A DNA stretch of 64,000 bases, taken from a virus (Duplodnaviria > Heunggongvirae > Uroviricota > Caudoviricetes). Made by a program: the position numbers and the translations under genes. The notes under the pieces are model-generated. The model saw nothing but the letters and a program-made list of their open reading frames with translations, was not told the origin of the DNA and searched no databases. Below are positions 15,075 through 51,270 of the stretch, piece after piece (the stretch's first letter is position 1; every line of letters begins with the position of its first letter). The DNA lies in IMG/VR virus record IMGVR_UViG_2862035965_000001. The stretch is one strand, 5' to 3'.

Positions 15075-15150
15075 CAACTGACCTATCTCGGGTCAGTGAA
15101 TTCTTGCTGATTGCCACACCACCAACCACTACAAGAAAGAACCACCCACC

Positions 15151-17055: not shown

Positions 17056-17075
17056 CCAACCTTTAGGAGTACATC

Positions 17076-17552
17076 ATGACTGATACCGCTACTCACAACA
17101 CCTCAAGAGCTCGACCTGAGCTAACTGCTGACCAAGCTGCATTTATTACCGGTTTTTGCGATGCAGCCATTTTCACAGCCATCGTCACAATAGACGACGA
17201 ACCTATGTTTCTTACCGATGCGTTCTTCTTAGGTCAAGAAACCTATACCGACATTCTTATAGCTCAGCTCCGCAATAACAAAGCCATTGTTAAAGATTGT
17301 CTTGAATTCCTCCATGACAATTACGACACAATGAAAAAGCTCATTGACGATGGTTTATGTCCAGATTGGGAACACCACGGTCATGACTTCTTACTCACTC
17401 GTGACCATCATGGCGCCGGATTCTGGGATCGTGGCTATGACGAATACGGTGACCGACTCACCGACAATGCCGAAAAATATTCAGAAAATTGCTTCAACTT
17501 CTGGATAGAGCCTGATAGTGACCCGCTCAGCATCAGCTACGACTACCGCTAA
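17076..17552 (+). CDS. Conserved phage-type hypothetical protein
   Basis: AGGAG RBS; distinctive GHDFLLTRDHHGAGFWDRG motif. Confidence 0.65.
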   Translation: MTDTATHNTSRARPELTADQAAFITGFCDAAIFTAIVTIDDEPMFLTDAFFLGQETYTDILIAQLRNNKAIVKDCLEFLHDNYDTMKKLIDDGLCPDWEHHGHDFLLTRDHHGAGFWDRGYDEYGDRLTDNAEKYSENCFNFWIEPDSDPLSISYDYR

Positions 17553-34669: not shown

Positions 34670-35761
34670 ATGAGTACAAAACCCACTATTGTGTCCACAT
34701 TTTCTGGTTGTGGTGGTCTTGATCTTGGCCTCCAAGAGGTCGGCTTTGACCCCATTTGGGCCAACGACTTCTCAAAAGAAGCAGTCGAAACCTATAGGCA
34801 CAACATCGGTGACCACATTGTTCACGGTGACATCACTGAGATTGATCCATTTACTGATGACACCATCCCTGACGGCGATCTTGTCACAGGTGGTTTCCCC
34901 TGCCAGGATTTCTCCATGATTTGGAAGCGCCCCGGACTCGACGGCAAGCGTGGCACCCTATACCAAAATTTTCGTGATTTTGTTGCAGCAAAAAAGCCTA
35001 AAGCCTTTATCGCAGAAAACGTCAAGGGACTCCTTACGGCGAACCAACACAAGGCTATTAAGACCATCATCGAAGACCTCGAAGCTGTAGAACCTGGCTA
35101 CATCGTCAAGCCCCGCCTGTACAACTTCGCTGAGTACGGTGTCCCGCAATTCCGTGAACGTGTGCTCATTGTCGGCATTCGTCGTGATACTGGCTTTGAC
35201 TTCAAACACCCCGCCCCCACCCACGGCCCTCGCGGTGACATGCCTTATAAGACTGCCGGCGAAGCGCTCACAGACGTTGAAAAAGTACCCTTCAACAACA
35301 ACCACATGAAGATCATGCCTCGCACCATTGAAGTGCTTAAGCGCATCCCTGAGGGTGAGAACTTCACGGCTATCCCCAAGGATGACCCTTTCTACGTCAA
35401 GGGCATGATTAGCCACGTTTACCGTCGCTTGCACCGTGATGAGCCGTCCAAAACCCTTATCGCCGGTGGCGGCGGGGGTACATGGGGATACCATTATGAG
35501 GAAAATCGAGCATTGACCAACCGCGAGCGGGCTAGAATTCAATCGTTCCCCGATGACTTTGAGTTTTTGGGATCAAACACTGAAGTCCGCCGCCAAATCG
35601 GTAATGCGGTCCCTCCTGTGGGTATGCACGCTGTGGGTGAACGACTGATGAACTTGTACACCGGGAATTACACCCCCGTCGATCTAGAGGAACAGCACGC
35701 GTACTTGCAGACGCTCACCATTAAGGAACGTCTCGCGCTGGCTGATCAGGAAGCTGATTAA
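34670..35761 (+). CDS. cglIM: C5-cytosine DNA methyltransferase M.CglI
   Basis: FSGCGG (motif I), GGFPCQDFS (IV), AENVKG (VI), QFRERV (VIII), RERARIQSFPD and QIGNAVPP (IX-X). Confidence 0.95.
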   Translation: MSTKPTIVSTFSGCGGLDLGLQEVGFDPIWANDFSKEAVETYRHNIGDHIVHGDITEIDPFTDDTIPDGDLVTGGFPCQDFSMIWKRPGLDGKRGTLYQNFRDFVAAKKPKAFIAENVKGLLTANQHKAIKTIIEDLEAVEPGYIVKPRLYNFAEYGVPQFRERVLIVGIRRDTGFDFKHPAPTHGPRGDMPYKTAGEALTDVEKVPFNNNHMKIMPRTIEVLKRIPEGENFTAIPKDDPFYVKGMISHVYRRLHRDEPSKTLIAGGGGGTWGYHYEENRALTNRERARIQSFPDDFEFLGSNTEVRRQIGNAVPPVGMHAVGERLMNLYTGNYTPVDLEEQHAYLQTLTIKERLALADQEAD

Positions 35762-35769
35762 GTAGATAT

Positions 35770-36843
35770 ATGAAGCCCACCGTTAATGTTGTGTTCAATG
35801 CGCATCGACCTAACGATACGCAGCCGTTGGATAAGTTCTTTGATAAAGAACTCAAAGACACGCATCATCTCGATATAACGGTGGGCTATATCAGTGAGAA
35901 ATCACTGCGGTATTTGCGCGATATTCTCGAAGAAAAGACCAACATCACCGCCAACCTCACGTGTGGAATGCACGCTTGTGAAGGCATGACTGCCCCGCAA
36001 TTACATTACGCACGTGAATTACACACGTTCCTCAGTAACAACAATCGTGGCGGAGTTTTCGTACTTCCTCGCCTGCGATACCACGGTAAAATTTATCTTT
36101 TTCACCAACGCACAGCGCCAGATCCAAAAGCATATATCGGCAGTGCAAATCTCTCGGCCATCATTCCCGGCCACGCATCAACTTTCGAGACCGGTGTCAT
36201 GCTTGACCCCGCGCCTACCGAACTCATCCAACATCTTCAACGTGATGTTGAGCCGCTTAAAGTACCCATCGACGAATATCACGTCCCCATTGTCGCTGAT
36301 CAAAACGCCCTGATGCGGGGCGTGTCCAGGGCTGCACCAATGTCAACGTCCCATGTCGTTGCAGTCATGTCTAGCCCTGCTCAATACACCTTTGATCTTC
36401 CGCTAAAAGCCCACCCAAAAAGCAGCCTCAACGCTCACCTTGGCGGTGACGGTGGGCGAATGCAAAAAACCGGACGAAGACTTTCCCGCAAATGGTATGA
36501 GGGTGAGCTCATTGTTGATGAGAAATATCGCGATCTGCCTGGATACCCACAAAAAGGAGTGCCATTTACAGTCATCACTGATGATGGATGGACTTTTGAA
36601 TGCAAGACCAGCGGTGACGGTGGTAAAAATCTTCGAAGTGTTGGCAGTCTTGAGACCTTCGGTGCCTGGATGAAGTCACGGCTTATCGACGCCGGTGCAC
36701 TTGAGTTCGGTGAAACGGCCACCGAAAAAAACATCGAACGATTTGGACGATCCCATCTCACAATGAAGTACCACCCCGACTACAATGTCTGGTCATTCGA
36801 TCTCAGCACTATTACGCCAATCCACCACACTGAACAGGACTAG
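35770..36843 (+). CDS. cglIR: PLD-family restriction endonuclease subunit R.CglI (NgoFVII-like)
   Basis: HGKIY…YIGSANLS (HKD/PLD motif) and a C-terminal DNA-recognition domain; directly after the methylase. Confidence 0.9.
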   Translation: MKPTVNVVFNAHRPNDTQPLDKFFDKELKDTHHLDITVGYISEKSLRYLRDILEEKTNITANLTCGMHACEGMTAPQLHYARELHTFLSNNNRGGVFVLPRLRYHGKIYLFHQRTAPDPKAYIGSANLSAIIPGHASTFETGVMLDPAPTELIQHLQRDVEPLKVPIDEYHVPIVADQNALMRGVSRAAPMSTSHVVAVMSSPAQYTFDLPLKAHPKSSLNAHLGGDGGRMQKTGRRLSRKWYEGELIVDEKYRDLPGYPQKGVPFTVITDDGWTFECKTSGDGGKNLRSVGSLETFGAWMKSRLIDAGALEFGETATEKNIERFGRSHLTMKYHPDYNVWSFDLSTITPIHHTEQD

Positions 36844-36844
36844 T

Positions 36845-38743
36845 ATGAGCGCACCATCACATCTTGAAATTTATACTCAAAGCATCAAAGACAATCCAGA
36901 CCTCAATACCAAAGTCACACAAACTATCAACGCTTTCAACGAAACAGTTTTAGCGGACTACGATTATTTTGGTGATCGGCAGGTACTTCTTTACGGTGAT
37001 GTCCAAAGTGGTAAAACGTCACACATGCTGGGTATTGTCGCTGACTGTTTAGACAAAAACTTCAACACAATTATCATTCTCACCTCGCCTAATATTCGTC
37101 TCGTACAACAAACCTATGACCGTGTATTCCAGTCTTTTTCCAACGTACTAGTGTGCGACAAAGATGACTTTAACGACTTCCGAGCTAATCAAAACCGAAC
37201 CATTCCTCAAAAGTCAATCATCGTCATAGGAAAAATCCCGGCTGTGCTTGATAAGTGGATAGAGACTTTTGATCAAACACAAGCCCTTAGTGGGAACCCT
37301 GTACTCATCATTGATGATGAGGCGGACGCAACAAGCCTTAACACTAAAGTAAACAAAAACGAAGTATCCACCATCAATGACAACCTCAGAAGCATCCGTG
37401 AACTTGCTACTGGATGCGTCTATCTTCAGGTGACAGGCACACCCCAGGCTGTACTTCTACAAACCATCGAAAGCGGTTGGACTGCCGAACAAGCGCTGCA
37501 TTTCGCTCCCGGTGATAAATACATCGGTGGATCACAATTTTTCAACGAATTCCCTAGCCCCTACACCCGACTATTCGCAAACACAGAACAAGATGAGCAT
37601 CGCCACCTTATTGACGCTGTACACACATTTATGTTGACAGCAGCGATGTTCAAGATCAACGGTGAGACCCTGTGCAACATGCTGGTGCATCCCAGCCACA
37701 CCGGTGCAATGCACGATGATTACAGCACCAATGTGAAAGCAATTATCGCAGATACATTCTCTCGTTTTGATGAGCTCGAAATTCAACAGTCTTTAAGACA
37801 GTCCTATGAGCAAATCTGCCAAACATATACCGAGGCACCGTCATTAAAGACCACCCTTGGCGTTGTGAAATTCATGGAAAAGGATTTCAACACCTACATC
37901 ATTAACAGCAAAAATAAGACAGACGAATCTGATTGGGCTAGTGGTTACAACATTGTCATCGGTGGTAACTCCCTTGGACGTGGCTTAACATTCGACAACT
38001 TACAAACCGTTTTCTACGTGCGCGAATCCAAGCGACCACAGGCAGACACCCTGTGGCAGCACGCCCGCATGTTTGGCTACAAACGCCACAAAGACACCAT
38101 GCGCGTGTTCATGCCGGCCACTATTGCTCAAACCTTCCAAGAGGTCTATCTCGGCAACGAAGCTATTAAAAATCAGCTCGATCATGGCACGCATATCAAC
38201 GACATTCGAGTCATTTTAGGTGATGGTGTCGCACCTACTCGTGGCAATGTTCTCGACAAACGCAAAGTTGGAAAACTCAGCGGTGGTGTCAACTACTTTG
38301 CTGCTGATCCTAAAATCAAGAATCTCGAAGCGCTCGACAACAAACTCTTGGCCTACTTGGACAAGCACGGTGAGGACTCCACCATCGGTATGCGGGCGAT
38401 GATCACCATTCTCAACGCCTTTACTGTAGACCCCAACGACCTCGATCTCGCTACATTCAAAGCCGCACTCCTTGACTTTGAGCGCAACCAACCTCATCTC
38501 ACAGCGCGTATAGTGCTGCGAACAAACCGTAAGGTCAATCAGGGTACAGGTGCCCTGCTCTCCCCTACTGACCAAGCACTCAGCCGTGAAGAAGTCACAC
38601 ACCCATTATTGATCCTGTACCGCATTGAAGGTGTTAACGATGCTGCTGCGCAAAGAGGTGAACCTACATGGTCAAGCGATCCTATTTGGGTCCCAAACAT
38701 TAAGCTGCCGGGTCAACGTCAATTCTGGCGCGTAGACAACTAA
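36845..38743 (+). CDS. cglIIR: Helicase/Z1-domain subunit H.CglI
   Basis: GDVQSGKT, IIDDEAD, QVTGTPQ, IGGNSLGRGLT, DTLWQHARMFGY (Z1). Start placed at ATG 36845 (632 aa). Confidence 0.9.
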   Translation: MSAPSHLEIYTQSIKDNPDLNTKVTQTINAFNETVLADYDYFGDRQVLLYGDVQSGKTSHMLGIVADCLDKNFNTIIILTSPNIRLVQQTYDRVFQSFSNVLVCDKDDFNDFRANQNRTIPQKSIIVIGKIPAVLDKWIETFDQTQALSGNPVLIIDDEADATSLNTKVNKNEVSTINDNLRSIRELATGCVYLQVTGTPQAVLLQTIESGWTAEQALHFAPGDKYIGGSQFFNEFPSPYTRLFANTEQDEHRHLIDAVHTFMLTAAMFKINGETLCNMLVHPSHTGAMHDDYSTNVKAIIADTFSRFDELEIQQSLRQSYEQICQTYTEAPSLKTTLGVVKFMEKDFNTYIINSKNKTDESDWASGYNIVIGGNSLGRGLTFDNLQTVFYVRESKRPQADTLWQHARMFGYKRHKDTMRVFMPATIAQTFQEVYLGNEAIKNQLDHGTHINDIRVILGDGVAPTRGNVLDKRKVGKLSGGVNYFAADPKIKNLEALDNKLLAYLDKHGEDSTIGMRAMITILNAFTVDPNDLDLATFKAALLDFERNQPHLTARIVLRTNRKVNQGTGALLSPTDQALSREEVTHPLLILYRIEGVNDAAAQRGEPTWSSDPIWVPNIKLPGQRQFWRVDN

Positions 38744-38767: not shown

Positions 38768-38807
38768 ACAAACACCGCTGTGGAATACTTTCCACAGCGG
38801 TGTTTGT
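38768..38807. terminator. Bidirectional terminator
   Basis: Perfect 18-bp stem ACAAACACCGCTGTGGAA-TACT-TTCCACAGCGGTGTTTGT between convergent genes. Confidence 0.85.
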
Positions 38808-38823: not shown

Positions 38824-40347
38824 CTAAACACCTTCAATGCGCCTAAAGGCTCGCGCGACTTCTTTATCAAAGTGACCTTGGGCAAGATCACGCCAATGCG
38901 GAAGCTTCACCAACATCATGCGGAATGCTCGGGTGGTCTTATATTTACCCATAGCAGACAGCGGATCATCGTCTGTACCAGATAGCGCCTCTTCCCCCTC
39001 AGCGTAGACACGCGACTGCTCCACCCCTGCCTGGGCACGCATAAGTGCAATATCTTCCTGCGACAACGCTTCGATCAGCACAGTGCCATCGACAGCATTA
39101 ACCAAGCCGTTGTTAGCAGTCACCCGGAAATTCGGATCTTGAGCAAAGGCATGGACGCATTCATCATATGCGGCAGTGAGCTCATCTTCGAGTGAATCCT
39201 GCAGGATGCGGTCGAATTGATCAACCAGCATATCTCGTGACACCTTGCCTTCGGCATAACGCTTCAACTGCATGTCAGCGAGCTTATGTTCTGCATTCTC
39301 CTGATCATGGATGAACTCATCGTTGACCTCCGCTTCTTCTGCCAGAGACTTCTTTTCAATCTTCACGCCAGTAGCGACTGGAAAACCTTGTGAACTGTCT
39401 TCAAAATCATCATCAAAGTCGTCGTACTCTGATTCCATGAAGTCACGTGCGTTCATTACAGCTTCATTAGCCTCATCATAATCTGGCGCGTCATCGTACT
39501 CGTCTTTCGCAATCATCGTATCTACGATGTCCATGATTTCTGCCGAGTACACATCCATATCCAGGCGTGCAATATCTGAGTCATCAAGCCCAGTCGCCTT
39601 TTTGTAAATATCGACGGCACGCTGAGTACGAATCGACTGCGCCATACGCTTTTCCAGCATCGCCATAAAGTCCGGTGCATTTTGATTCACATCGAATTCA
39701 TTGGCGCTCGACAGTGTTGGGATAGTCTGCAACGAGTATTCGCGACCCGGTTGGATAATCTGGTTAGCAAACAGCATGAAACTCATCGGCCAAATCGTTT
39801 CATTGCGTGACCACACCGGATACTGACCTGCACGGAAAACAACGGCATTCTGCGATGGCAGAGTATTTAGGTCATTATAAGACACCACCGGCTCTTTCTC
39901 AGTTGCAGACGTATACGACACTTTGCCCTCGGTGCGCATAACTAACTGAGCCAAGTCACGGGTCACTGTCTTTGAGTTCCTGCGTACAACATGCCGTTCA
40001 CCTGACCAGTCCACCAACGTCTTAATCATTGTTTCGTCTGTGGATTTCAAGAAAATAATATTGGACGTGTTGTGGGTCGGGATCATATCGTCAGTGATGT
40101 AGAGATGGTCACGGTCGGCAATGCTGATGCATTGCACGGTGTCGCGACGAGAGAACTCTACAGAGACGATTTCGTTGTTTGCTGCCGGCACATCGAGGCG
40201 TGCCCGATCTGCTGGATCGAAGTTGTCTAAGATCTCTGGCGCCGGCGCTGTGACACCAGGTAGAAACACCCTATCCCCTCGTGCCAGCATCGCTTGAAGC
40301 TCTGCCGTGGTGACGATTCTGCGCTCGCCGGCAATTGTCTGCGTCAT
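38824..40347 (-). CDS. C-terminal half of the VirD4/TraG coupling protein, preceded by a split-intein C-fragment
   Basis: The first 93 aa end in intein blocks F/G (DTVQCISIADRDHLYITDDMIPTHN). They are followed by TSNIIFLKSTDETMIKTLVDWSG…EPVVSYNDL, the canonical TraG/VirD4 C-terminal region. Own RBS (GAAGGGG). Confidence 0.88.
   Translation of the reverse strand: MTQTIAGERRIVTTAELQAMLARGDRVFLPGVTAPAPEILDNFDPADRARLDVPAANNEIVSVEFSRRDTVQCISIADRDHLYITDDMIPTHNTSNIIFLKSTDETMIKTLVDWSGERHVVRRNSKTVTRDLAQLVMRTEGKVSYTSATEKEPVVSYNDLNTLPSQNAVVFRAGQYPVWSRNETIWPMSFMLFANQIIQPGREYSLQTIPTLSSANEFDVNQNAPDFMAMLEKRMAQSIRTQRAVDIYKKATGLDDSDIARLDMDVYSAEIMDIVDTMIAKDEYDDAPDYDEANEAVMNARDFMESEYDDFDDDFEDSSQGFPVATGVKIEKKSLAEEAEVNDEFIHDQENAEHKLADMQLKRYAEGKVSRDMLVDQFDRILQDSLEDELTAAYDECVHAFAQDPNFRVTANNGLVNAVDGTVLIEALSQEDIALMRAQAGVEQSRVYAEGEEALSGTDDDPLSAMGKYKTTRAFRMMLVKLPHWRDLAQGHFDKEVARAFRRIEGV
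40069..40347 (-). other. Split intein C-fragment (IntC, 93 aa, class 3 signature)
   Basis: Block F with Cys at F4 (TVQCISI) and His (DHLY); block G PTHN with Thr at G5; +1 residue Thr (ACG, 40066-40068). Confidence 0.88.
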
Positions 40348-40444
40348 ATTATAAACCCCTTCAATTAAATCAAGTAATTAATATACTAACTTAATTAAGT
40401 TTATTTTTTAAGATTTACTATGCTCTACGCAAACGCACCCAGAA

Positions 40445-40515
40445 TCACCATAAGCACCGTTTCCAGACGCAGAAACTAATTGAGCATATTGTAAAATATA
40501 GCTATGCTGACAATG
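40445..40515 (+). repeat. 71-bp direct repeat, copy 1
   Basis: 67/71 identical to 41553-41623 by manual alignment. Confidence 0.9.
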
Positions 40516-40574
40516 ATTCCGCCACAACCATCTACACAGCTGGTAGATAGAAGCGTTGAGAAGTGCTTTAAGTG

Positions 40575-41354
40575 TTAGCGATTAAAGCGCCCACAAATAT
40601 AACCAACAGCAAATCCAGCAAGAGCAGTTGTTGTTGCACTCTCGACAGGACGGGTGGCTATATCCTCGGCAGGACTATCGGGGCTATCAGCACTGCGCTC
40701 TTCAAGATCGCTATCATCTTTATCTTCGTCATGAAAATCAATGAGTATGCCATCAATAAAGTCATCCATGGTTGATGTGATGAAACTGGCGACTGCAATG
40801 AGCAGCAGCGCTACACACGTAATCCAAGCAGGTGTACCACTAGACGCATCAGGTGCGTTTGGAACGATGACTCCAAATGCAACACAGTAGACAACTCCAG
40901 GAATTAGTAGCCCATAAATAACAAATAGTACTGCATAAGCAATAGCAACACTGAGCCTAGAAGAAGTCTTGCTGACGTAAAGCGCCATGCGACGTGCAAT
41001 ATGCGCGAACTCATGGCGACCGTGCACTACTCTATACTTTGTTATCACCATGTAGATCACCAGGATTACTAAAGATATAATCATTGCACTGGAAGTTAGC
41101 CCTTCGGCCAATGGGAGTGGCGCAATCATCAAAGACAGCAACAGCGATCTAATTTTGCGAACGAATAATGTGCGTAACATGCTTCCTGCAATTTGCATAT
41201 TGCTGGGATCATCTTTGGTTCTATCGCGTCCACCCTTGGGGTAGTGGTCTTCAATTCTATTGGTATTAGTCACTGGACTTTTTTCTCCTTGTGTAAATGT
41301 TCCCGAAAATAGTAGATTCATCCCGCTTTTAGGAACGGTAATTAACTCTGTCAA
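40575..41354 (-). CDS. Multi-pass membrane protein with acidic tail
   Basis: About four hydrophobic helices plus a C-terminal hydrophobic segment; start uncertain (TTG 41354 or a downstream ATG). Confidence 0.65.
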   Translation of the reverse strand: MTELITVPKSGMNLLFSGTFTQGEKSPVTNTNRIEDHYPKGGRDRTKDDPSNMQIAGSMLRTLFVRKIRSLLLSLMIAPLPLAEGLTSSAMIISLVILVIYMVITKYRVVHGRHEFAHIARRMALYVSKTSSRLSVAIAYAVLFVIYGLLIPGVVYCVAFGVIVPNAPDASSGTPAWITCVALLLIAVASFITSTMDDFIDGILIDFHDEDKDDSDLEERSADSPDSPAEDIATRPVESATTTALAGFAVGYICGRFNR

Positions 41355-41552
41355 TGAAACTGTGAAGTAAAAGCAGTTTCAATAAAAGCACATCTATACG
41401 TGCTCTCACTATCACTGTGCGCGCATCATAAAAACGCGCAAGCACTATATAAATATCAACAGTTTCTACACAATAATCAGAAAACAATAAATAAGCTGGT
41501 CACCGCAGCAACTCACCCCACCCGGCCCCCTTTTCCCTCGCTGACACCGGAG

Positions 41553-41623
41553 TCACCATAAACACCGTTTCCAGACACAGAAACTAATTGAGCATATTGT
41601 AAAATATAGCTATGCCAACAATG
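41553..41623 (+). repeat. 71-bp direct repeat, copy 2 (promoter and first codons of the endonuclease gene)
   Basis: Contains TAAAAT (41600-41605) 6 nt before ATG 41612, the spacing of a leaderless transcript. Confidence 0.88.
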
Positions 41624-43432
41624 CTTATTGATACCCACCCACATCTTGCAGCACAACTTCTTGATCCTGATTTAGGCAAACTTCTTACCGCTGGCTCCAA
41701 CAAAAAGGTCCAGTGGCAATGCCCTGAGCACGCTGATCATATCTGGACAGCCTCGGTGAATAACCGAACCAATGCGAAGAACCCGCGCTGCCCATATTGT
41801 GCCAGCACGCGAGTATTAGCTGGATTTAATGACCTTGCCACCACTCACCCACATCTCGCTGTGCAGCTGGTTGACCAAGATATTGCCCTCACCATTTCTG
41901 CTGGTTCTGGCAAAAAGCAACTGTGGCAGTGTGCAGTAAACCCCAAGCACCAGTGGTTGGCTACGCCAAATAATCGCACGAGTACTAAATCTGCGAGTTC
42001 GGGTTGTCCCTATTGCGCAAATCGAGCAGTCTTAGTCGGTGACAATGACTTTGCAACAACCCACCCCGAACTTGCAGCGCAGTTAGTAGATCAATCTGCA
42101 GCGACAACCTTTACAGCCGGCCACAACAAGCCTGTTGAGTGGATCTGTTGCAAACATGAGCCACCATTTATCTGGAAAACCTCACCAATTTTGCGTGTAC
42201 GACAGAACACCCAGTGTCCTGTGTGCTCCGAACGAGCTGTGGCACCAACACTTAATGATCTTGCAACCACTCACCCTAAACTTGCCGAGCAAATCACAGA
42301 CCCTCAACCAAACGGCATGAGTGCCACAACTATTATCCCAACCATCAGTAGGGGCTCCCATACGCAATTAACATGGCAATGTTCTAAAAATCATGACCAT
42401 CAGTGGATCGCTACAGTGAAAGATCGAGTTCGCGGGACAGATTGCCCCACCTGCGCAAATACAGGGACATCACGTAAAGAAGCCGAGCTTGTTGAGGTCA
42501 TCCGAGCATTGCTCCCAAACACTGATGTCCAGCAAGGTGCGCTCATTAATGGGCGTACTGGTAATCGAGGTGCATCGCCATCAACCGATGTACTCATACC
42601 GTCCAAAAATCTCGCTATCGAGTTCAACGGCCTGTACTGGCACTCTGAGCTTTTCCTCAAAGATAAGCATTATCATGCGAACAAATCGGCTCTCGCAGAA
42701 CAAGCCGGCGTGCAGCTTATTCATGTGTGGGAGGACGACTGGAATCTTCGCCGCGACATTGTGATCCGCATGATCGCGCACAAGCTTCATGCAACCCATA
42801 ATCTCGGCACCGTCCTACCAGCAGAAACCACTGACCCGCGTGTGTCCACCACAGCCTTTGCCCGCACACTCACACCAACTGCAGTCTCTGGTTCACATGC
42901 TGCTGCATTCTTGAACAGGAACCATATTCAGGGTGCTGTCTCGGCCACCAAGCATCTAGCCCTGTGCGATAACAACGGTGACATTCGAGCACTACTATCG
43001 GTGCGCTCACCAAAAAACAATGCCCGCATGTATCGCAAAAAAGGCACATGGGAGATCCAGCGCTATGCGACACTCGGTAACGTCCCTGGCGGTTTTACTA
43101 GGCTGCTAAAGTTTGCCGAACACACACTCAACGAACACGGCACAGTGCTCAAACAATGGATCTCGTTTTCTGCAGCAGATGTCTCTGACGGTGGTTTGTA
43201 TCGAGCTGCCGGCTTTACTGCTGAGCAACAGCTTGCACCGGATTATCGCTATGTCGGTGGCGCAACAGGTTGGCGCCGAACACCCAAAGAAAGCTTCCAA
43301 CGCAAGCGATTTAGAGACGACCCAGCGTTGCTGTGGAACGAATCTTGGACAGAGCACGAAGCAGCGCTCAACAACGAGCTGTACAGAATCTACGATGCCG
43401 GCAAAACCCGGTGGGTTAAAAATGTTGCTTGA
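41612..43432 (+). CDS. Putative free-standing homing endonuclease: four Zn-ribbon repeats, a Vsr/DUF559-like nuclease and a Hef-like C-terminal domain
   Basis: Four THPxLAxQ…WxC…W…R…CPxC repeats (DUF4379-like); DVLIPSKNLAIEFNGLYWHS…LIHVWEDDW; FLNRNHIQG…GGFTRLLKF…GLYRAAGF…RIYDAG. Confidence 0.72.
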   Translation: MPTMLIDTHPHLAAQLLDPDLGKLLTAGSNKKVQWQCPEHADHIWTASVNNRTNAKNPRCPYCASTRVLAGFNDLATTHPHLAVQLVDQDIALTISAGSGKKQLWQCAVNPKHQWLATPNNRTSTKSASSGCPYCANRAVLVGDNDFATTHPELAAQLVDQSAATTFTAGHNKPVEWICCKHEPPFIWKTSPILRVRQNTQCPVCSERAVAPTLNDLATTHPKLAEQITDPQPNGMSATTIIPTISRGSHTQLTWQCSKNHDHQWIATVKDRVRGTDCPTCANTGTSRKEAELVEVIRALLPNTDVQQGALINGRTGNRGASPSTDVLIPSKNLAIEFNGLYWHSELFLKDKHYHANKSALAEQAGVQLIHVWEDDWNLRRDIVIRMIAHKLHATHNLGTVLPAETTDPRVSTTAFARTLTPTAVSGSHAAAFLNRNHIQGAVSATKHLALCDNNGDIRALLSVRSPKNNARMYRKKGTWEIQRYATLGNVPGGFTRLLKFAEHTLNEHGTVLKQWISFSAADVSDGGLYRAAGFTAEQQLAPDYRYVGGATGWRRTPKESFQRKRFRDDPALLWNESWTEHEAALNNELYRIYDAGKTRWVKNVA

Positions 43433-43446
43433 TTGTATACAACGAA

Positions 43447-43481
43447 AACAACCCCCTGAGGATAATCATCAGGGGGTTGTT
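43447..43481. terminator. Bidirectional terminator
   Basis: AACAACCCCCTGA…TCAGGGGGTTGTT between the convergent endonuclease gene and the VirD4 N-half gene. Confidence 0.8.
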
Positions 43482-43494
43482 CTGTTTCAACTCA

Positions 43495-46400
43495 TTATGC
43501 TGCGCTTGCTGCATCCTGCTCGGCAGGAACCACAATCACTTCCCACAAATGCTCATCACACGCCTCTGTGGTTGAGCCATCTTTACGTGTCACTGTGAAC
43601 ACGTCCCGCTCACCTTGTGGGAACACGCCGTCAATCTCGCTGACCGTTCCCTTTGGGGTAAGCACCTTCATGCCCTCTTCTGCTTCGCCCATCGTGACCC
43701 ATCCATCGGGTGTTGCGATCTTCGCCGTCAACGGCTGCGCATTACCTTGGAGAATCTTGTCTGAGGCTTCGCCATACACCTGCGTCAATTGCTGCAGTGT
43801 CTGCAGGATCAACGTAAATTGCTGTTCCTGACCCAAACCAATCGAAAGCATGGTTTCAAACCCTGCGATTCCGTGCCCTTCCGATTGCAAATTTCCCAAC
43901 TCATCCAACATGAACCGAGTCTTATAATCCGGCTTCTGGTTCTCGCGTGTCATATACGACGAGTCAAAATTCAGATCCACTAGCTGTTTGATAAGAATCA
44001 AAATCAACTTCGCATATTTCATAAGATGCGGAGGCGTTACGAAAAACACTGCCTTAGGCTTCTCCGAATACCGCACACTCAGAGCCGACACCGCATCAAC
44101 CATCGCATCAACCTGCTTGATCATGTCGTGACCAGGCATATTGATCTGCTCCTGCGTGAGCTGGTTAAGATTCAGTTTCTTCGTCTTAAACTGCACATGC
44201 CCTGGAACAAAGTCACCAGCATCGTTTTTCACCAGCTCAATCAGCAGACCATTCTTAATGATCTTCTCATCGGTCACCGGATCAGTAATAAACGCACGGC
44301 CTTTAAGGTTCGTTTGGTAGCCCTTGGTGAACTTGAAGAACAACGTCTTGATCAAAGTGCCAGAAGTGCCGTTGAGAATCCGCAAACGCAAGTACGCAGT
44401 ATTACTCGGGAACGAATCCTTAATATAAAACCGCGCCCAACCCTCAACCGACAACGTGTCATCATGAACAAAATTCTTACCCAACGGCTTGGTGAACTTG
44501 GCGTCACTGTAGGCATCCCATTTCACCTGTGATCCAACCAAGTTGTAGCGCTTCACATAGGGGGCTGCAAAACGAACACCCATGCGCCGTGGAAACGACA
44601 ATCCGGCCAAGTCAACATTCTGACTTAGTGTGCCTGAGGTTAACGTTGAAATTGTGGGGTCTGTAAAGAAGGACATCGCTGTAATCGCGATACCGTAGAC
44701 CGACGCGATCATTTTTTCAGCGCCACCCATTGCTTTCAGGGCCTTATCTGCGTTGCCTACCAAAGTACGAACACTGGACTTTGGCAGACCGTCTGTGGCA
44801 CTAAAGAACAAGGTGAGCATGTCTTTTTCTTTCTCACCCTCCCACAGAAACATTTCGTTCTCTTCGGCCTCTGTCACAGCATCCTGGAACATCATGGCTG
44901 CATTTTCATCAGTCTCTAAGTTACCGAATTCACCGGCACGTGCACGTTCATTAAGCCGCTCAACGGGGTTCTTCAGCTTCTTTGCCGAAAGCTGCACAAA
45001 GAGCTGGTAGCAGTTGTAGAGCGTTACTTTGCCCCACATCTGATCAATACGTGTATCGAGGACTTTGGCATCCCAATTCTCAGCTGCAGCCTGCTTGCGC
45101 ATCTCGCGCTCCTCTTCCAAATAGAAGTCGATAAGACCATAGGCTGCACGCTTGAAGGCATTGTTGGCCGCATTCGGCCATACCGGATCATCGGCACCGT
45201 CCACCGGAAAGAACACCTCTGCGATATTTTCCACATAGGTTGCGCACTTCATCCCGTTACCTTCGCGAGCTGCTTCGGCTGCTAATCCCAACGGGTTATA
45301 AATATCAGTTTTCAGGTTGTTAATCAGGTTAAACTGAACAACCTGAAAACCGCGCTTAGACATCCGAACATAATTTTTCTTCAGCAACTCGCCTTTAGGG
45401 TCGTTGATACACATATTGTTCGGTCGAGTTTCCCGTGTCCACATGTCGATCATTGGCTCAATGTAGGTCTGACCCTTACCTGCACGAGTCATAGCCAGCA
45501 CCAACGTGTTCACCGGAGCCTCATCGACGACATAGGCGCCAGCTGGTCGCTGCGGCTCATAATCGGGGAATTCCCAATCCTCATTGATGTGCTGCGCAAC
45601 AGTATCCTGCTTACCAGTCTTGTCGCGATTACTACCGCCAGGGTTCCATTCAATCGTTGTCGGATTAAAAAACCGTCGCAGCTCAGGAAGGTTCGGCACG
45701 TCTGACTTATCAAAAATCGAGTGACTAAATTCGTTGTCAATCATCGGCAAACTCTTAGTCACCGGCTGTCCTGCATTGTCATAGAGCACCTCACCCTTTT
45801 CGGAGACAATTTCACCGGTGTCGTTGTCGATAATTGTCTCCTGCGCAAACTGTGTCACATCCACCTTTTTCAAACCCTTATTCGACAACATCACATGAGA
45901 AATCATGCTTGAGGGCTGGACTGGTGAGTGTGCACCGACATCAGGGAACAAGCTCAAATCGCGCACAATCTCCTGCGGAATAGCCAAACGCGCGTCATTA
46001 GTGTGCTGGTTAATATCCGTGGTGTCCACAGCAACATTCTGAGTCTCTAACTGACGCATCATAGCTGCACGTGACATCGCATACACACCTGTTGCAATAG
46101 CAATCACAAACATCACCCGAATAAGACTGGTGTGCCCAAATAACAGCCAGCTACCCACCGAATTATCAATAGGTTCTGGTGCATCAAAGCCATGTTCTGC
46201 GAACACACTAGCTACATAATCGGCGTACCACACTGGCTCTTTAGGCACGCTACGTGTACAGTCACCAAAATTATTGCCAAATTCATCAAGCGGTTGGTAG
46301 CACGTGGTGTGAGCACTACTGGTGCCAATTTGCTGTTCGACGGCAACGTAATAGGGCCTCACACCAAGCTCATCGAAAAGCTCTTCATCATAGGGTGAGC

Positions 46401-46713
46401 TAGTATTCATCATTGTCTGGACCAAAAGCCCGATGCCGCCCCAGACCAACCACATCACGATCAGTACAAACACACCCAAAATTGCAGCGCCCACCTCAAC
46501 CCACATTGGTGAGCGCATTTCTCCAATTTCACCACGTGCTAATTGCTGCTCATTATGCACATCGCGGTTGCGGGCTTTATCTGTTACCCGCTGTTTTCGC
46601 AGCTGATCAAATGTGCGATCAGTCTGTTTCAGATCTTTGGTCCCACCACCTTTAAAGGTCTTGCCACCAGACACATTGTCATAGTCGCGTTTGCTTGAAC
46701 CAAATAACGCCAT
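43495..46713 (-). CDS. N-terminal half of the VirD4/TraG type IV coupling ATPase, ending in a split-intein N-fragment
   Basis: Two N-terminal TM helices, Walker A variant AMTRAGKGQT, INDPKGEL, YNPL, Walker B FMLDELGNL, SIGLG…ILQTLQQLTQVYG…ILQGN, then the intein N-fragment. Start placed at ATG 46713 (AGAAAGG RBS). Confidence 0.88.
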   Translation of the reverse strand: MALFGSSKRDYDNVSGGKTFKGGGTKDLKQTDRTFDQLRKQRVTDKARNRDVHNEQQLARGEIGEMRSPMWVEVGAAILGVFVLIVMWLVWGGIGLLVQTMMNTSSPYDEELFDELGVRPYYVAVEQQIGTSSAHTTCYQPLDEFGNNFGDCTRSVPKEPVWYADYVASVFAEHGFDAPEPIDNSVGSWLLFGHTSLIRVMFVIAIATGVYAMSRAAMMRQLETQNVAVDTTDINQHTNDARLAIPQEIVRDLSLFPDVGAHSPVQPSSMISHVMLSNKGLKKVDVTQFAQETIIDNDTGEIVSEKGEVLYDNAGQPVTKSLPMIDNEFSHSIFDKSDVPNLPELRRFFNPTTIEWNPGGSNRDKTGKQDTVAQHINEDWEFPDYEPQRPAGAYVVDEAPVNTLVLAMTRAGKGQTYIEPMIDMWTRETRPNNMCINDPKGELLKKNYVRMSKRGFQVVQFNLINNLKTDIYNPLGLAAEAAREGNGMKCATYVENIAEVFFPVDGADDPVWPNAANNAFKRAAYGLIDFYLEEEREMRKQAAAENWDAKVLDTRIDQMWGKVTLYNCYQLFVQLSAKKLKNPVERLNERARAGEFGNLETDENAAMMFQDAVTEAEENEMFLWEGEKEKDMLTLFFSATDGLPKSSVRTLVGNADKALKAMGGAEKMIASVYGIAITAMSFFTDPTISTLTSGTLSQNVDLAGLSFPRRMGVRFAAPYVKRYNLVGSQVKWDAYSDAKFTKPLGKNFVHDDTLSVEGWARFYIKDSFPSNTAYLRLRILNGTSGTLIKTLFFKFTKGYQTNLKGRAFITDPVTDEKIIKNGLLIELVKNDAGDFVPGHVQFKTKKLNLNQLTQEQINMPGHDMIKQVDAMVDAVSALSVRYSEKPKAVFFVTPPHLMKYAKLILILIKQLVDLNFDSSYMTRENQKPDYKTRFMLDELGNLQSEGHGIAGFETMLSIGLGQEQQFTLILQTLQQLTQVYGEASDKILQGNAQPLTAKIATPDGWVTMGEAEEGMKVLTPKGTVSEIDGVFPQGERDVFTVTRKDGSTTEACDEHLWEVIVVPAEQDAASAA
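43498..43740 (-). other. Split intein N-fragment (IntN, 81 aa, Ala1, class 3 signature)
   Basis: Block A AQPLTAKIATPDGWVTMGE, N2 GMKVLTPKG, block B TTEACDEHLW (His B10, Trp B12), then a stop codon 15 aa later. Confidence 0.88.
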
Positions 46714-49482: not shown

Positions 49483-51270
49483 TTACCCCTCTACACGCTT
49501 AATCACCACACGTGCTGTAGACACACGGTTGGTCTTATTACGCATCTGACCATCGACATCAACGTAAATGTCACGCACCTCGGGGTAGGTATTAATAAAG
49601 GTTGCGACCTCGGTGACTACTTCCCGCTGCAAAGATCGCACCGCACCACGGGCACCACCGGACTCCGCACTTTCCTCCACCTGATCCACCAACAAGAACT
49701 CCATCACCTTGTGCGAACAGTGCATAACCACACCATGTCGTGCGTATACCTCACTAGCCACATCTTTGAGCTTTTTGGTGATAATCCTGTCCTGCGTCGT
49801 TTCCGATAGTGGTTGAAACGGCACAATCTCATCCACACGCCCAAGAAGTTCTGGTGGAAAGCCTTTATTTTTGATTGACGTATGAATGTTTTTAATAAAG
49901 TCTTTAATTGCTCGTCCATCACCTGTGTCATCAGTGGCGTAATTCGAAATAGTCTCGAAAATCTCAGAACCAGCGTTGGTTGTCATAACAATATAGGTAT
50001 TAAGAAAACTCACCTCGCGGTTGTAATCATCAGATAATCGACCATCATCAAGTACTTGCAGCAAAAGCCGTGCAATAGCTCGGTCAGCCTTTTCTACTTC
50101 ATCGAGCAGAACAATGGCATTACCCTGGTCTGCCACGCGGCGCGTGAGTTCAGACCTAAACAGATCTAGACTTGATTCCAAGGCAAATTCCGACATATCA
50201 AATCGAATAAGGCGCCCGGTATCATCACCAAACAGTACTCGTGCCAACTGCTTAACTAGCTCTGTTTTACCCACACCAGTGGGGCCAGTGAACAAAAAAT
50301 TCGACAGTGGCCTGGACTTATCATGAAGATCGGCCACCACCAGCTGCAAACGACGTGCTACCACAGTCGTAGCGAGACTTTGCGCCATCACTTTCTCATC
50401 AAGCTTGTCTTTAATGCTCGTACCATCGACCTTGAAGGCAATATCCACACCAATAGCATCGTGGAGCACATCGCCCAGCAGATCCATATCCATCGGCTTG
50501 CCAGAGAGTCGATGCCAACCCACCATTGCATCAAGGACGCGAATTGATTTACGAGGCTGGACAGAACTCGGCATAAAACGCTCAGTGGTGGAGTAAATCT
50601 GCTCAAAAACGTGATCGTCATAAAACTGATCGCTTACACCATAACGATCCGCCATACCACGCAAAATCGCCACAGTGGTCTTCTGATCGGTCGGTGTTAG
50701 TCGAATTTCCTGCAAGCGCTCCGTCAATGCTTGGTTCGGCCTGATGTGCTCATGAAATTCTTCCAACGTGGTCGCAGCGATAACACGCACACCAAGCACG
50801 CCTGACATCGCCAAAATCGGCTTAATTGCCTCTACCGCAGCAGTAGACAGCTGCACAATTTGGTGAAACTCGTCAATAAAGAGCACCAGCTCATGACCCT
50901 CGTGCTTGCGATAAGCAATAGCGTCTTCAAACACACCTTTAATGCGTGCTGCCATCTGCGCCGGCGTGCTCAAATCCGCAACCATTTTCGCTACATCGAC
51001 CTCGATATAGTTACGTTCTGGATCTTTCACCAGTGCTTGCTGCACCAACGTGGTTTTACCCGAACCCGCAGGACCAACGAGCATGACATTCGAGATCTCT
51101 GGTCGCATCAGCGCAGCCATAATCTTATTGACTTCTTCTTCGCGTCCAACAATCTCACGCACCGGTACGGCAACAGGTGCTGCATACGCGCTCAAATAGG
51201 GGTACTTGTCTTCATCAATCTCCCGATTAATCGACACACCTACCGACACACCTACCATACTCTGAGTCAT
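49483..51270 (-). CDS. Second ClpA/B-family AAA+ ATPase (no N-domain)
   Basis: NBD1 GPAGSGKT / LFIDEFHQ / AATT; NBD2 GPTGVGKT / RFDMSEF / LLDEVEKA / DDGRLSD / PELLGRVD / GARG. Confidence 0.88.
   Translation of the reverse strand: MTQSMVGVSVGVSINREIDEDKYPYLSAYAAPVAVPVREIVGREEEVNKIMAALMRPEISNVMLVGPAGSGKTTLVQQALVKDPERNYIEVDVAKMVADLSTPAQMAARIKGVFEDAIAYRKHEGHELVLFIDEFHQIVQLSTAAVEAIKPILAMSGVLGVRVIAATTLEEFHEHIRPNQALTERLQEIRLTPTDQKTTVAILRGMADRYGVSDQFYDDHVFEQIYSTTERFMPSSVQPRKSIRVLDAMVGWHRLSGKPMDMDLLGDVLHDAIGVDIAFKVDGTSIKDKLDEKVMAQSLATTVVARRLQLVVADLHDKSRPLSNFLFTGPTGVGKTELVKQLARVLFGDDTGRLIRFDMSEFALESSLDLFRSELTRRVADQGNAIVLLDEVEKADRAIARLLLQVLDDGRLSDDYNREVSFLNTYIVMTTNAGSEIFETISNYATDDTGDGRAIKDFIKNIHTSIKNKGFPPELLGRVDEIVPFQPLSETTQDRIITKKLKDVASEVYARHGVVMHCSHKVMEFLLVDQVEESAESGGARGAVRSLQREVVTEVATFINTYPEVRDIYVDVDGQMRNKTNRVSTARVVIKRVEG

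What the first reader, a model, noticed from the sequence alone, without database searches (positions are those of the whole stretch)
38824..46713. Fractured VirD4/TraG gene rejoined by a naturally split class 3 intein
Seen in sequence: ORF 43495-46713 ends …QVYGEASDKILQGN|AQPLTAKIATPDGWVTMG…TEACDEHLW…stop. ORF 38824-40347 begins with 93 aa ending …TVQCISIADRDHLYITDDMIPTHN|TSNIIFLKSTDETMIK. Removing both fragments gives ILQGN-TSNIIFLKSTD, a seamless version of the conserved TraG/VirD4 'ILGN…IF…D' motif. Established: Ala1 plus Trp(B12)-Cys(F4)-Thr(G5) defines class 3 inteins, which splice via a branched Cys intermediate; all three residues are present, Trp on one gene and Cys/Thr on the other. 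Inference: the coupling ATPase is assembled by protein trans-splicing from two separately transcribed genes, each with its own RBS and with a terminator between them. I do not recall a naturally split class 3 intein or a split intein in a T4SS coupling protein, but novelty needs checking. It could act as a post-translational switch on DNA transfer and be a useful splicing tool.
Basis: partly seen in the sequence, partly recalled or inferred. Interest (0 to 1): 0.96.

Follow-up and report, generated by a model that had tools for sequence, protein, structure and literature searches.

The report
Split class 3 intein in VirD4
A DNA-transfer ATPase gene in a Corynebacterium mobile element is encoded in two pieces that each carry half of a self-splicing protein element, so the two proteins are very probably stitched together after translation; it is only the second kind of naturally split class 3 intein found, and it is cut at an unusual place.

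Summary
The N-half ORF (46713-43498, minus strand) ends ...DKILQGN followed by an 81-aa IntN. The C-half ORF (40347-38827) starts with a 93-aa IntC, then TSNIIFLKSTD.

Intein-free homologues read QGN|TSNI(V/I)FLKSTD. One natural 1502-aa homologue carries IntN and IntC fused as a single 166-aa mini-intein. Its model has a Hint fold, and solved class 3 inteins are the best structural matches.

Ala1, His-x-Trp, Cys(F4), Thr-His-Asn and Thr+1 are present here and almost invariant in 60 IntN and 96 IntC relatives. dN/dS against C. glutamicum is 0.02 for IntN and 0.17 for IntC.

The 3.1-kb gap holds an antisense Vsr-like homing endonuclease (DUF4379 zinc ribbons) and a membrane-gene cassette. All nine split loci examined have such an endonuclease. 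An independent metagenome contig bridges the locus, so this is not an assembly artefact.

One natural split class 3 intein is published (AceL NrdHF, 2020), as are fractured genes (2009) and a cis class 3 intein in IcmO. What is new: a canonical WCT family in T4CP genes, a split just after block B, and an antisense endonuclease.

This scan already found the same system in C. glutamicum CGP3 (e1-2842705, e1-2842703). Splicing itself is inferred, not shown.

The parts
43741..46713 (-). N-extein of the VirD4/TraG-like coupling ATPase (aa 1-991; TM region, Walker A ...TRAGKGQT..., ends DKILQGN)
   Evidence: Pfam T4SS-DNA_transf 1.3e-15 and TraG-D_C 1.2e-6. 55-60% identical to the unsplit P0065 and P0042.
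43498..43740 (-). IntN, 81 aa: Ala1, block A (AQPLTAKIATPDGW), block B (CDEHLW: Cys B7, His B10, Trp B12), 15-aa tail; stop codon at 43495-43497
   Evidence: phmmer hits gp41-1 (1.6e-4) and 6bs8 (4e-3). Family profile hits gp41-1 at 1.9e-13 and 6bs8 at 1.4e-8. 59 of 60 relatives have Ala1 and 55 of 60 have EHLW.
43441..43486 (.). G+C-rich hairpin between the convergent N-half and endonuclease genes; likely a bidirectional terminator
   Evidence: -27.9 kcal/mol, z = -5.2.
41612..43432 (+). Free-standing homing-endonuclease gene, antisense to the split gene (606 aa). It has four DUF4379 treble-clef Zn ribbons, a Vsr-like/I-Bth0305I-type nuclease core (..LAIEFNGLYWHSE..HVWEDDW..) and a GNAT/Mom-like C-terminal domain.
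   Evidence: Pfam DUF4379 1.2e-41. Profile hits 3r3p at 1.3e-5. Foldseek top hit is 3r3p, TMt 0.72. MTES_1575 matches 7 of 9 orthologues. dN/dS 0.07 against G703.
40575..41354 (-). Cargo gene in the gap: a multi-pass membrane protein of no known family (259 aa from TTG; 239 aa from ATG in G703)
   Evidence: ORF list. No Pfam or NCBIfam hit. Present in G703.
41547..41626 (.). Copy 2 of an 80-nt direct repeat: the 5' region and first 5 codons of the endonuclease gene
   Evidence: the repeat finder family D3, 91% identity, spacing 1108 nt.
40439..40518 (.). Copy 1 of the 80-nt direct repeat. Together the two copies bracket the membrane-gene cassette.
40069..40347 (-). IntC, 93 aa: strand-helix-strand segment (ERRIVTTAELQAMLARGDRVFLP), linker, block F (VQCISIADRDHLY: Cys73 = F4, His81), block G (MIPTHN: Thr91 = G5, His92, Asn93)
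   Evidence: Family profile hits only class 3 inteins (6bs8 9e-6, 6rix 1.9e-5) with Cys, His and THN aligned. Of 96 relatives, 87 have VQCI and 86 have PTHN|T.
38824..40068 (-). C-extein (414 aa, starts Thr+1: TSNIIFLKSTDE...) plus stop codon
   Evidence: Pfam TraG-D_C profile 56-125. Aligns to P0065 941-1331.
38768..38807 (-). Terminator-like hairpin (18 bp) after the C-half

Best explanation
The coupling ATPase (VirD4/TraG-type T4CP) of a CGP3-like mobile element in a Corynebacterium is a 'fractured gene'. It is broken at a conserved ATPase-domain motif (..YG...DKILQGN|TSNIIFLKSTD..) by a naturally split class 3 intein.

Two polypeptides are made: N-extein plus an 81-aa IntN, and a 93-aa IntC plus C-extein. 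IntN supplies blocks A and B. IntC supplies one strand-helix-strand unit plus blocks F and G. The two associate into a single Hint domain.

The inferred chemistry follows the established class 3 pathway. Cys73 of IntC (block F4) attacks the Asn991-Ala1 peptide bond and forms a branched thioester. The acyl group then moves to Thr+1. Asn93 cyclises and releases the intein. An O-to-N shift yields a 1405-aa T4CP containing ILQGN-TSNIIFLK.

The fracture is maintained and spread by a free-standing Vsr-like (I-Bth0305I-type) homing endonuclease with DUF4379 zinc-ribbon arrays. Its gene is antisense and lies next to the IntC gene. The space between the halves has become a landing site for cargo genes, here a membrane-protein cassette.

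Shown: the anatomy, homology, fold, conservation, purifying selection and mobility pattern. Inferred: association of the halves, trans-splicing, the class 3 chemistry and endonuclease activity.
For: 1. Boundaries. Intein-free homologues read QGN|TSNIVFLKSTDD or QGN|AANLVFLK (29 of the 120 best hits). Cis alleles with a LAGLIDADG domain sit at the same site (23 of 120). 60 of the 120 are split N-halves ending 5-14 residues after block B.
2. P0066 carries IntN and IntC as one 166-aa mini-intein in a 1502-aa T4CP. The window's two genes tile it.
3. The AF2 model of that mini-intein has pLDDT 85.5 and pTM 0.81. Foldseek's best matches are the class 3 inteins MchDnaB-1 (6riy) and Msm DnaBi1 (6bs8), then gp41-1, with E about 1e-8 and TMt 0.81.
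4. Each half's family profile finds inteins on its own.
5. Class 3 signature. Ala1 occurs in 59 of 60 IntN. EHLW, with Trp two residues after the block B His, occurs in 55 of 60. VQCI occurs in 87 of 96 IntC and PTHN|T in 86 of 96. The Cys-to-His (+8) and Cys-to-aromatic (+10) spacing is as in MP-Be DnaB Cys320/His328/Phe330 (PMC2807308).
6. Selection. dN/dS against G703 is 0.02 for IntN, 0.17 for IntC, 0.09 for the C-half and 0.07 for the endonuclease.
7. All nine distinct split loci carry a DUF4379 endonuclease gene in the gap. The fused-mini locus L015 has none.
8. The endonuclease matches I-Bth0305I by profile (1.3e-5) and by fold (TMt 0.72).
9. On the N-extein tree the split, cis and free states are interspersed, with at least 8 changes forced by starred branches. 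On the IntN tree all 28 cis-LAGLIDADG inteins form one side of a branch (SH-aLRT 95.5) against the 62 split and mini inteins. This is consistent with one split lineage moving horizontally between alleles.
10. Independent assemblies bridge the locus.
Against: No protein-level evidence exists: no spliced product, no junction peptide and no structure of this pair. Co-folding of the two window fragments could not be run. The Hint-fold test was therefore made on a fused relative that is 58% identical to IntN and 38% to IntC, not on the window's own halves.

Both halves are acidic (net -9 and -6), so the charge complementarity seen in some fast split inteins is absent. Block B position 7 is Cys rather than Thr.

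The IntN tree rests on 70 columns and is unrooted. RNA-library contigs covering the locus in relatives cannot prove transcription or give the strand.
Confidence: 0.85

Rival explanations
1. The intein halves no longer splice. They act only as a non-covalent dimerisation module that holds the two T4CP fragments together. A mobile-element-derived interaction domain does this for a fragmented NrdA (title and abstract of PMC3045599, listed).
For: No splicing data exist. Both halves are acidic, with no obvious electrostatic zipper. Split genes without inteins exist in fractured arrangements (PMC2677866).
Against: Residues needed only for chemistry, not for binding, are invariant or nearly so across relatives 40-65% identical. 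These are Cys F4, His F-block, Thr-His-Asn and Thr+1, plus His B10 and Trp B12. dN/dS of IntN is 0.02.
Confidence: 0.07
2. The coupling-protein gene is simply broken. It would be a decaying pseudogene pair in a domesticated, silenced prophage-like island, with no functional product.
For: CGP3-type islands are cryptic. The family is rare in species-representative genomes: 2 of 401 in the class and 2 of 301 in the genus.
Against: Both ORFs are full length with no frameshifts. The same two-gene architecture recurs in dozens of diverged loci. There is purifying selection on the halves, the exteins and the endonuclease.
Confidence: 0.04
3. The halves do trans-splice, but not by the class 3 route. 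One alternative is direct attack of Thr+1, as in class 2.
For: Six of 23 cis relatives at this site begin with Cys1 while keeping the WCT triplet. The lineage therefore tolerates a class 1-type nucleophile.
Against: Split members are Ala1 in 59 of 60 cases. Cys F4 is invariant. In every class 3 intein tested, Cys F4 was obligatory and the +1 residue could not substitute (PMC2807308, PMC5222942).
Confidence: 0.04

Closest known systems
AceL NrdHF intein (Hoffmann et al. 2020, PMC7891396): the only published naturally split class 3 intein
   Same: Naturally split, Ala1, block F Cys nucleophile, fractured-gene organisation with a free-standing homing endonuclease between the halves.
   Different: AceL NrdHF has an aberrant MCT triplet, lacks both conserved His residues, and is split at the canonical endonuclease-insertion site (98 + 48 aa). 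It has a GIY-YIG endonuclease and comes from a single phage-like metagenome contig, in a ribonucleotide reductase gene. The intein here has the canonical WCT triplet and both His residues, and is split just after block B (81 + 93 aa). Its endonuclease is Vsr-like and antisense, its host is a T4CP gene, and it belongs to a large family that includes a cultured bacterium.
Fractured genes with Vsr-like or GIY-YIG endonucleases, including gp41-1 (Dassa et al. 2009, PMC2677866)
   Same: [quoted passage not shown] The Vsr-like (I-Bth0305I) nuclease family is shared. IntN's best sequence match in the PDB is gp41-1.
   Different: The published loci have all three genes on one strand with 27-51-nt spacers. 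They occur in phage DNA-metabolism genes and are class 1 inteins split at the canonical site. Here the endonuclease is antisense and carries DUF4379 Zn-ribbon arrays and a GNAT/Mom-like domain. The gaps are 2.4-7 kb with cargo genes. The intein is class 3.
Msm DnaBi1 (6bs8) and MchDnaB-1 (6rix/6riy) class 3 mini-inteins
   Same: Best structural and C-terminal sequence matches. They share Ala1, H-x-W, the V(R/Q)C..HLY..PTHN motifs and the Hint fold.
   Different: They are contiguous cis-splicing inteins in the DnaB P-loop, about 20-26% identical.
Bvi IcmO class 3 mini-intein (Tori et al. 2010; Tori & Perler 2016)
   Same: A class 3 (WCT) intein in a plasmid-borne protein. I recognise IcmO/DotL as a type IVB coupling-protein homologue from my own knowledge; the papers call its function unknown.
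   Different: It is cis-splicing and has Cys+1. Its insertion site (ARSLGF|CITFA) is different and the host is proteobacterial.
Cis LAGLIDADG inteins at the same T4CP site (Streptomyces, Arthrobacter, Kitasatospora, Saccharopolyspora; e.g. P0057, P0052)
   Same: Identical insertion point (QGN|..THN|TSN) and the same WCT residues. About 45% identical in the splicing blocks.
   Different: They are contiguous, at 356-364 aa, with a nested LAGLIDADG domain about 30 residues downstream of where the split family is cut. They form a separate clade from the split inteins on the IntN tree.

Membership tests
Intein (Hint domain) | Hint fold | tested here: met
   AF2 model of the fused relative P0066:952-1128 has pLDDT 85.5. 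38 PDB matches have E<=1e-3 and all of the top 22 are inteins. The test was made on a relative, not on the window's two chains.
Intein (Hint domain) | Exteins contiguous in intein-free homologues, with precise in-frame insertion | tested here: met
   QGN|TSNIVFLKSTDD in 29 intein-free homologues. BLASTP tiling.
Intein (Hint domain) | C-terminal His-Asn followed by a Ser/Thr/Cys nucleophile | tested here: met
   THN|T in the window. H92, N93 and T94 are invariant in alignment A2.
Intein (Hint domain) | Protein splicing activity | not testable with these tools
   Needs expression plus western blot or mass spectrometry.
Class 3 intein (Tori et al. 2010) | Non-nucleophilic first residue | tested here: met
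   Ala1 in the window and in 59 of 60 split relatives.
Class 3 intein (Tori et al. 2010) | Trp at block B position 12 (two residues after the block B His) | tested here: met
   CDEHLW in the window. EHLW in 55 of 60 relatives. Aligned to the H-x-W of 6bs8.
Class 3 intein (Tori et al. 2010) | Cys at block F position 4 | tested here: met
   VQCI. Cys73 is invariant in 61 sequences and aligned to the V-R-C of 6bs8 and 6rix.
Class 3 intein (Tori et al. 2010) | Thr at block G position 5 and Thr/Ser at +1 | tested here: met
   PTHN|T in 86 of 96 relatives. All 96 have Thr+1 by the pattern count.
Class 3 intein (Tori et al. 2010) | Branched thioester intermediate on Cys F4 | not testable with these tools
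   A biochemical assay is required.
Naturally split intein | Two separate genes, each with its own start and stop, whose intein parts together make one complete intein | tested here: met
   Stop codon 15 codons after Trp B12. IntC starts at an ATG with an SD-like motif. The halves tile P0066 with a 2-residue gap.
Naturally split intein | The split is genuine in the DNA, not an assembly or sequencing error | tested here: met
   Independent contigs, genome G703 and nine loci.
Naturally split intein | Fragments associate and trans-splice | not testable with these tools
   Needs co-expression.
Fractured gene (Dassa et al. 2009) | Free-standing homing-endonuclease gene between the two intein-bearing halves | tested here: met
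   41612-43432 in the window. Present in 9 of 9 split loci.
Fractured gene (Dassa et al. 2009) | All three genes on one strand, separated by tens of bases | tested here: not met
   The endonuclease is antisense in 7 of 9 loci. L016 has one gene on each strand, and the P0104 locus has it on the same strand. Gaps are 2.4-7 kb with extra genes.
Vsr-like / I-Bth0305I homing endonuclease family | Sequence and fold similarity of the catalytic core | tested here: met
   3r3p matches by profile at E=1.3e-5. Foldseek rank 1, TMt 0.72, rmsd 3.0. The model is moderate, pLDDT 73.
Vsr-like / I-Bth0305I homing endonuclease family | Site-specific cleavage of the intein-free allele | not testable with these tools
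   An in vitro cleavage assay is needed.
VirD4/TraG type IV coupling protein | T4SS-DNA_transf and TraG-D_C domains above the Pfam cut-offs | tested here: met
   57.7 bits against a cut-off of 20.1, and 28.9 against 22.
VirD4/TraG type IV coupling protein | Equivalog-level match to a named T4CP (CD1115, VirD4, IncP TraG) | tested here: not met
   NCBIfam conju_CD1115 scores 128.5 bits against a cut-off of 250. The other models score far below their cut-offs. This is a family-level member only.

The most novel reading that the evidence does not exclude
The split intein and its antisense Vsr-like endonuclease form one self-mobile 'fracture cassette'. The cassette homes into intein-free T4CP alleles of actinobacterial conjugative or prophage-like elements. 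It represents a third natural split-site type: cut in the loop directly after block B, with one strand-helix-strand unit of the usual N-fragment moved to IntC. Its inter-half gap serves as a protected landing pad for cargo and defence genes (membrane protein, PIN, GmrSD, UvrD, RNA ligase). T4CP assembly, and hence DNA transfer, then depends on co-expression of two separately transcribed units.
Probability: 0.45. Interest if true: 0.75.

Novelty: new variant of a known kind. Interest (0 to 1): 0.62.

Why it matters
1. For intein biology. The only published natural split class 3 intein is an aberrant singleton from a metagenome, and a survey of 1701 class 3 inteins in nr found none split (PMC7891396). 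Here is a large, diverse family with canonical WCT chemistry, available in a cultivable, genetically tractable, non-pathogenic genus. It coexists with intein-free, cis-LAGLIDADG and fused-mini alleles at the same site. That makes it a natural series for studying how inteins become split and how fractured genes spread.

2. For protein engineering. Class 3 split inteins need no nucleophile at the N-junction and only Thr at +1. The catalytic Cys lies on the C-fragment. The unusual cut gives fragment sizes (about 72-81 and 90 aa) unlike existing tools. Dozens of orthologues at 45-65% identity could provide orthogonal pairs.

3. For mobile-element biology. An essential DNA-transfer ATPase that must be assembled post-translationally from two transcription units is a possible control point. 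This is speculative. The gap behaves as a cargo hotspot.

Tried and rejected
The fused natural relative P0066 was folded instead.
- Pfam found no intein family for either fragment alone, even at E<=10. Recognition needed PDB phmmer or profiles.
- The search for related loci in genome contigs with the C-half gave only one distant intein hit, an Accumulibacter MAG. The single-protein patterns were too strict.
- Megablast against plasmids gave no match.
- The genome search found the family rarely among species representatives: 3 of 41 relatives (the two non-own hits matching only the IntN region), 2 of 401 in the class and 2 of 301 in the genus.
- MAFFT alignment A3, which mixed IntN and IntC fragments with the fused intein, mis-aligned IntC onto IntN (EHLY onto EHLW). 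It was discarded and replaced by A4.
- I first read the two extra insertions in the G703 allele as intein-less fractures. I rejected that for the 2,066-nt one, because Rfam shows a group II intron.
- Charge complementarity between the halves was sought and not found (net -9 and -6).
- The RNA-library contigs cannot show strand, ends or expression level, so they are not used as evidence of expression.
- Literature searches for a split intein in VirD4, in a coupling protein or in CGP3 found nothing relevant. The library lacks most subscription journals, so absence there is weak evidence.
Full report
**Observation.** The two ORFs are exactly as described. The N-half (46713..43498, minus strand, 1072 aa) is a VirD4/TraG-type coupling ATPase. 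It matches Pfam T4SS-DNA_transf at 1.3e-15 and TraG-D_C at 1.2e-6, and runs to ...DKILQGN (aa 991). An 81-aa tail follows: AQPLTAK...CDEHLWEVIVVPAEQDAASAA, then stop. The C-half (40347..38827, 507 aa) starts with 93 aa ending ...VQCISIADRDHLYITDDMIPTHN and continues TSNIIFLKSTDE. The Pfam TraG-D_C profile is cut between the genes: positions 3-59 lie in the first gene and 56-125 in the second.

A strong hairpin sits between the N-half stop and the convergent + strand gene (-27.9 kcal/mol, z = -5.2). SD-like motifs precede both starts.

**Is it an intein?** Pfam does not recognise either fragment, but other searches do. IntN alone hits the gp41-1 intein (1.6e-4) and the class 3 Msm DnaBi1 intein 6bs8 (4e-3). 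A profile of 50 IntN relatives hits gp41-1 at 1.9e-13 and the class 3 DnaB inteins at about 1e-8. A profile of 61 IntC relatives hits only class 3 inteins (6bs8 9e-6, 6rix 1.9e-5), with Cys, His-Leu-Tyr and Pro-Thr-His-Asn aligned.

A search of 5.8 billion proteins gave three allele types among the 120 best hits of the N-half:
- 29 intein-free proteins of 1320-1470 aa reading QGN|TSNIVFLKSTDD or QGN|AANLVFLK (Nocardiopsis, Rhodococcus, Gordonia).
- 23 proteins carrying a contiguous intein at the same point. 22 of them are about 1630-1740 aa, with a 310-364-aa intein that has a LAGLIDADG domain. The 23rd is the fused-mini P0066. First residues are Ala (13), Cys (6) and Pro (4).
- 60 split N-halves that stop 5-14 residues (rarely more) after block B.

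The C-half search gave 411 hits. Of the best 120, 96 are complete IntC + C-extein proteins.

One protein, P0066 (1502 aa), carries IntN and IntC fused as a 166-aa mini-intein. The window's two genes tile it: N-half to P0066 8-1035, C-half to 1038-1499. An AF2 model of that mini-intein (pLDDT 85.5, pTM 0.81) is a Hint domain. Its best PDB matches are the class 3 inteins MchDnaB-1 and Msm DnaBi1, followed by gp41-1 (E about 1e-8, TMt 0.81).

**Class 3 assignment.** Tori et al. define class 3 by three features: a non-nucleophilic first residue, the Trp(B12)-Cys(F4)-Thr(G5) triplet, and Thr or Ser at +1 (PMC2807308). All are present here: Ala1; H-L-W; V-Q-C-I with His at +8 and an aromatic residue at +10, as in MP-Be DnaB Cys320/His328/Phe330; and P-T-H-N|T.

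All are conserved among relatives. Ala1 occurs in 59 of 60 IntN, EHLW in 55 of 60, VQCI in 87 of 96 IntC, and PTHN|T in 86 of 96. Cys73, His81, His92, Asn93 and Thr+1 are invariant in alignment A2. Block B position 7 is Cys in 56 of 60 rather than Thr. That position is dispensable in MP-Be DnaB (PMC2807308).

**Evidence for function.** Against the C. glutamicum-type genome G703 (3,309,401 bp), dN/dS is 0.02 for IntN, 0.17 for IntC, 0.09 for the whole C-half and 0.07 for the endonuclease.

**Split site.** Alignment A4 compares the split, mini and LAGLIDADG inteins. The LAGLIDADG domain of the cis relatives sits after the segment homologous to IntC residues about 8-35 (RRIVTTAELQAMLARGDRVFLP). 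The split family is therefore cut about 30 residues upstream of the canonical endonuclease-insertion and split site.

In the model the cut falls in the low-confidence loop 78-87. This loop lies between the strand that carries block B (70-77) and a strand-helix-strand unit (88-107), which here belongs to IntC. Published natural split inteins are cut either at the canonical site (DnaE, gp41-1, AceL NrdHF 98 + 48; PMC7891396, PMC2677866) or, from my own memory, very near the N-terminus (AceL-TerL, VidaL). I found no report of a cut at this position.

**The gap.** The 3,147-nt gap holds two things.

First, a 606-aa + strand gene. It has four DUF4379 zinc ribbons (1.2e-41), a nuclease core and a C-terminal domain. 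The nuclease core matches the I-Bth0305I catalytic domain by profile (3r3p, 1.3e-5) and by fold (Foldseek rank 1, TMt 0.72). [quoted passage not shown] The C-terminal domain has GNAT/Mom-like structural matches.

Second, a 259-aa membrane protein gene bracketed by an 80-nt direct repeat. The repeat (40439-40518 and 41547-41626, 91% identical) duplicates the start of the endonuclease gene.

All nine distinct split loci examined carry a DUF4379 endonuclease gene between the halves, usually antisense and next to the IntC gene. The loci are the window, L005, L008, L013, L014, the P0104 locus, L016, L017 and L018. Gaps are 2.4-7 kb and contain varied cargo: PIN, GmrSD, UvrD helicase and RNA ligase. 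The fused-mini locus L015 has no endonuclease.

**Mobility.** On a tree of the 430 N-extein residues before the junction (113 rows), split, cis and free alleles are interspersed. Starred branches force at least 8 changes of the 'split' state, and near-identical exteins carry different states. On the 70-column IntN tree the 28 cis-LAGLIDADG inteins form one side of a branch (SH-aLRT 95.5) against all 62 split and mini inteins.

This fits one split lineage spreading horizontally between alleles, presumably by endonuclease-driven homing. P0066 would then be a possible secondary re-fusion. The tree is unrooted and short, so this remains inference.

**Not an artefact.** A 73.5-kb metagenome contig spans 38000-46798. 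G703 has the same gene order.

In G703 the N-half is further interrupted. One interruption is a 2,066-nt group II intron at ..EQQF|TLILQ.. (Rfam RF02004 5.5e-30, RF00029 9.4e-11). It carries a 405-aa Zn-ribbon/nuclease ORF rather than a reverse transcriptase. The other is a 1.66-kb insert right after Walker A with a DUF7487 ORF. The window's allele has neither insert and no Rfam hit.

**Comparison with the literature.** A naturally split class 3 intein has been published once: AceL NrdHF. It has an MCT triplet and lacks two conserved His residues. It is cut at the canonical site, has a GIY-YIG endonuclease and comes from a phage-like metagenome contig. The same paper found no split member among 1701 class 3 inteins in nr (PMC7891396).

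Fractured genes are known from phage-type metagenome loci with all genes on one strand (PMC2677866). A cis class 3 intein exists in Bvi IcmO (PMC2807308, PMC5222942). A survey of intein hosts lists VirB4 and VirB11 but not VirD4 (PMC4760082).

I found no paper on a split intein in a T4CP or in CGP3. This scan has already reported the same system in C. glutamicum CGP3 (e1-2842705, e1-2842703). My results on this second, intron-free allele agree with those reports.

**Verdict.** This is a real, conserved, very probably functional split class 3 intein in a fractured T4CP gene. It is a new variant of known kinds rather than a new category. Splicing itself is untested.

Noticed in passing
L022:8004-10069 (G703, C. 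glutamicum-type genome); corresponds to window 43813: The same T4CP gene in G703 carries a 2,066-nt group II intron at ..EQQF|TLILQ.., 24 codons upstream of the intein (Rfam RF02004 5.5e-30, RF00029 9.4e-11). Its ORF is a 405-aa Zn-ribbon/nuclease protein rather than a reverse transcriptase. The window's allele lacks the intron.
   Followed up: partly
L022:11729-13391 (G703); corresponds to window 45472/45473: A second 1.66-kb insert lies directly after the Walker A motif (..TRAGKG|). It carries a 402-aa DUF7487 ORF with an IELNGDRSH nuclease-like motif. An earlier scan note calls it a group I intron, but Rfam gave no hit at E<=0.01 in my search.
   Followed up: partly
window 42800-43432 (endonuclease residues ~400-606): The C-terminal domain of the homing endonuclease has GNAT-fold matches, including phage Mu Mom, a DNA-modifying enzyme. 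This could mean DNA modification or only DNA binding. Model confidence is moderate (pLDDT 73).
   Followed up: partly
window 28463-34246 (-): A 1927-aa protein has a weak RNA_pol_Rpb2_6 match. Orthologues in related elements (L015, L018) also hit RNA_pol_Rpb1_2. This looks like a single-chain two-barrel RNA polymerase encoded by the element, always directly downstream of the T4CP gene in relatives.
   Followed up: no
window 34670-38743 (+): A C5-methylase, an NgoFVII-type endonuclease and a Z1/helicase protein form a restriction-modification cluster. It is wedged between the T4CP C-half and the RNA polymerase-like gene, which are adjacent in relatives L013 and L015.
   Followed up: no
L008:4322-7486, L016:3342-7031, P0104 locus 3148-7233: In related elements the ClpB-like AAA ATPase gene upstream of the T4CP carries LAGLIDADG inteins. 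One has an IntN 36% identical to the T4CP intein. The window's copy (49483-51270, 595 aa) is intein-free.
   Followed up: no
L005:16140-16316: A 58-aa ORF immediately upstream of IntC is a remnant copy of the N-extein segment ..RFMLDELGNL..GLGQ.. (tblastn 7e-8). It hints at partial duplication or gene conversion during fracture.
   Followed up: partly
P0104 locus (no DNA held), gene 13101-17273: One split locus has a 1390-aa DUF4379 ORF on the same strand right after the N-half, and no separate ~480-aa C-half gene was called. The endonuclease may be fused in frame to IntC + C-extein.
   Followed up: no
P0018, P0033, P0040, P0060, P0091, P0116: Six cis inteins at this site start with Cys1 yet keep Trp B12, Cys F4 and Thr G5. 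They are WCT inteins with an N-terminal nucleophile, like the three exceptions noted by Tori et al.
   Followed up: no
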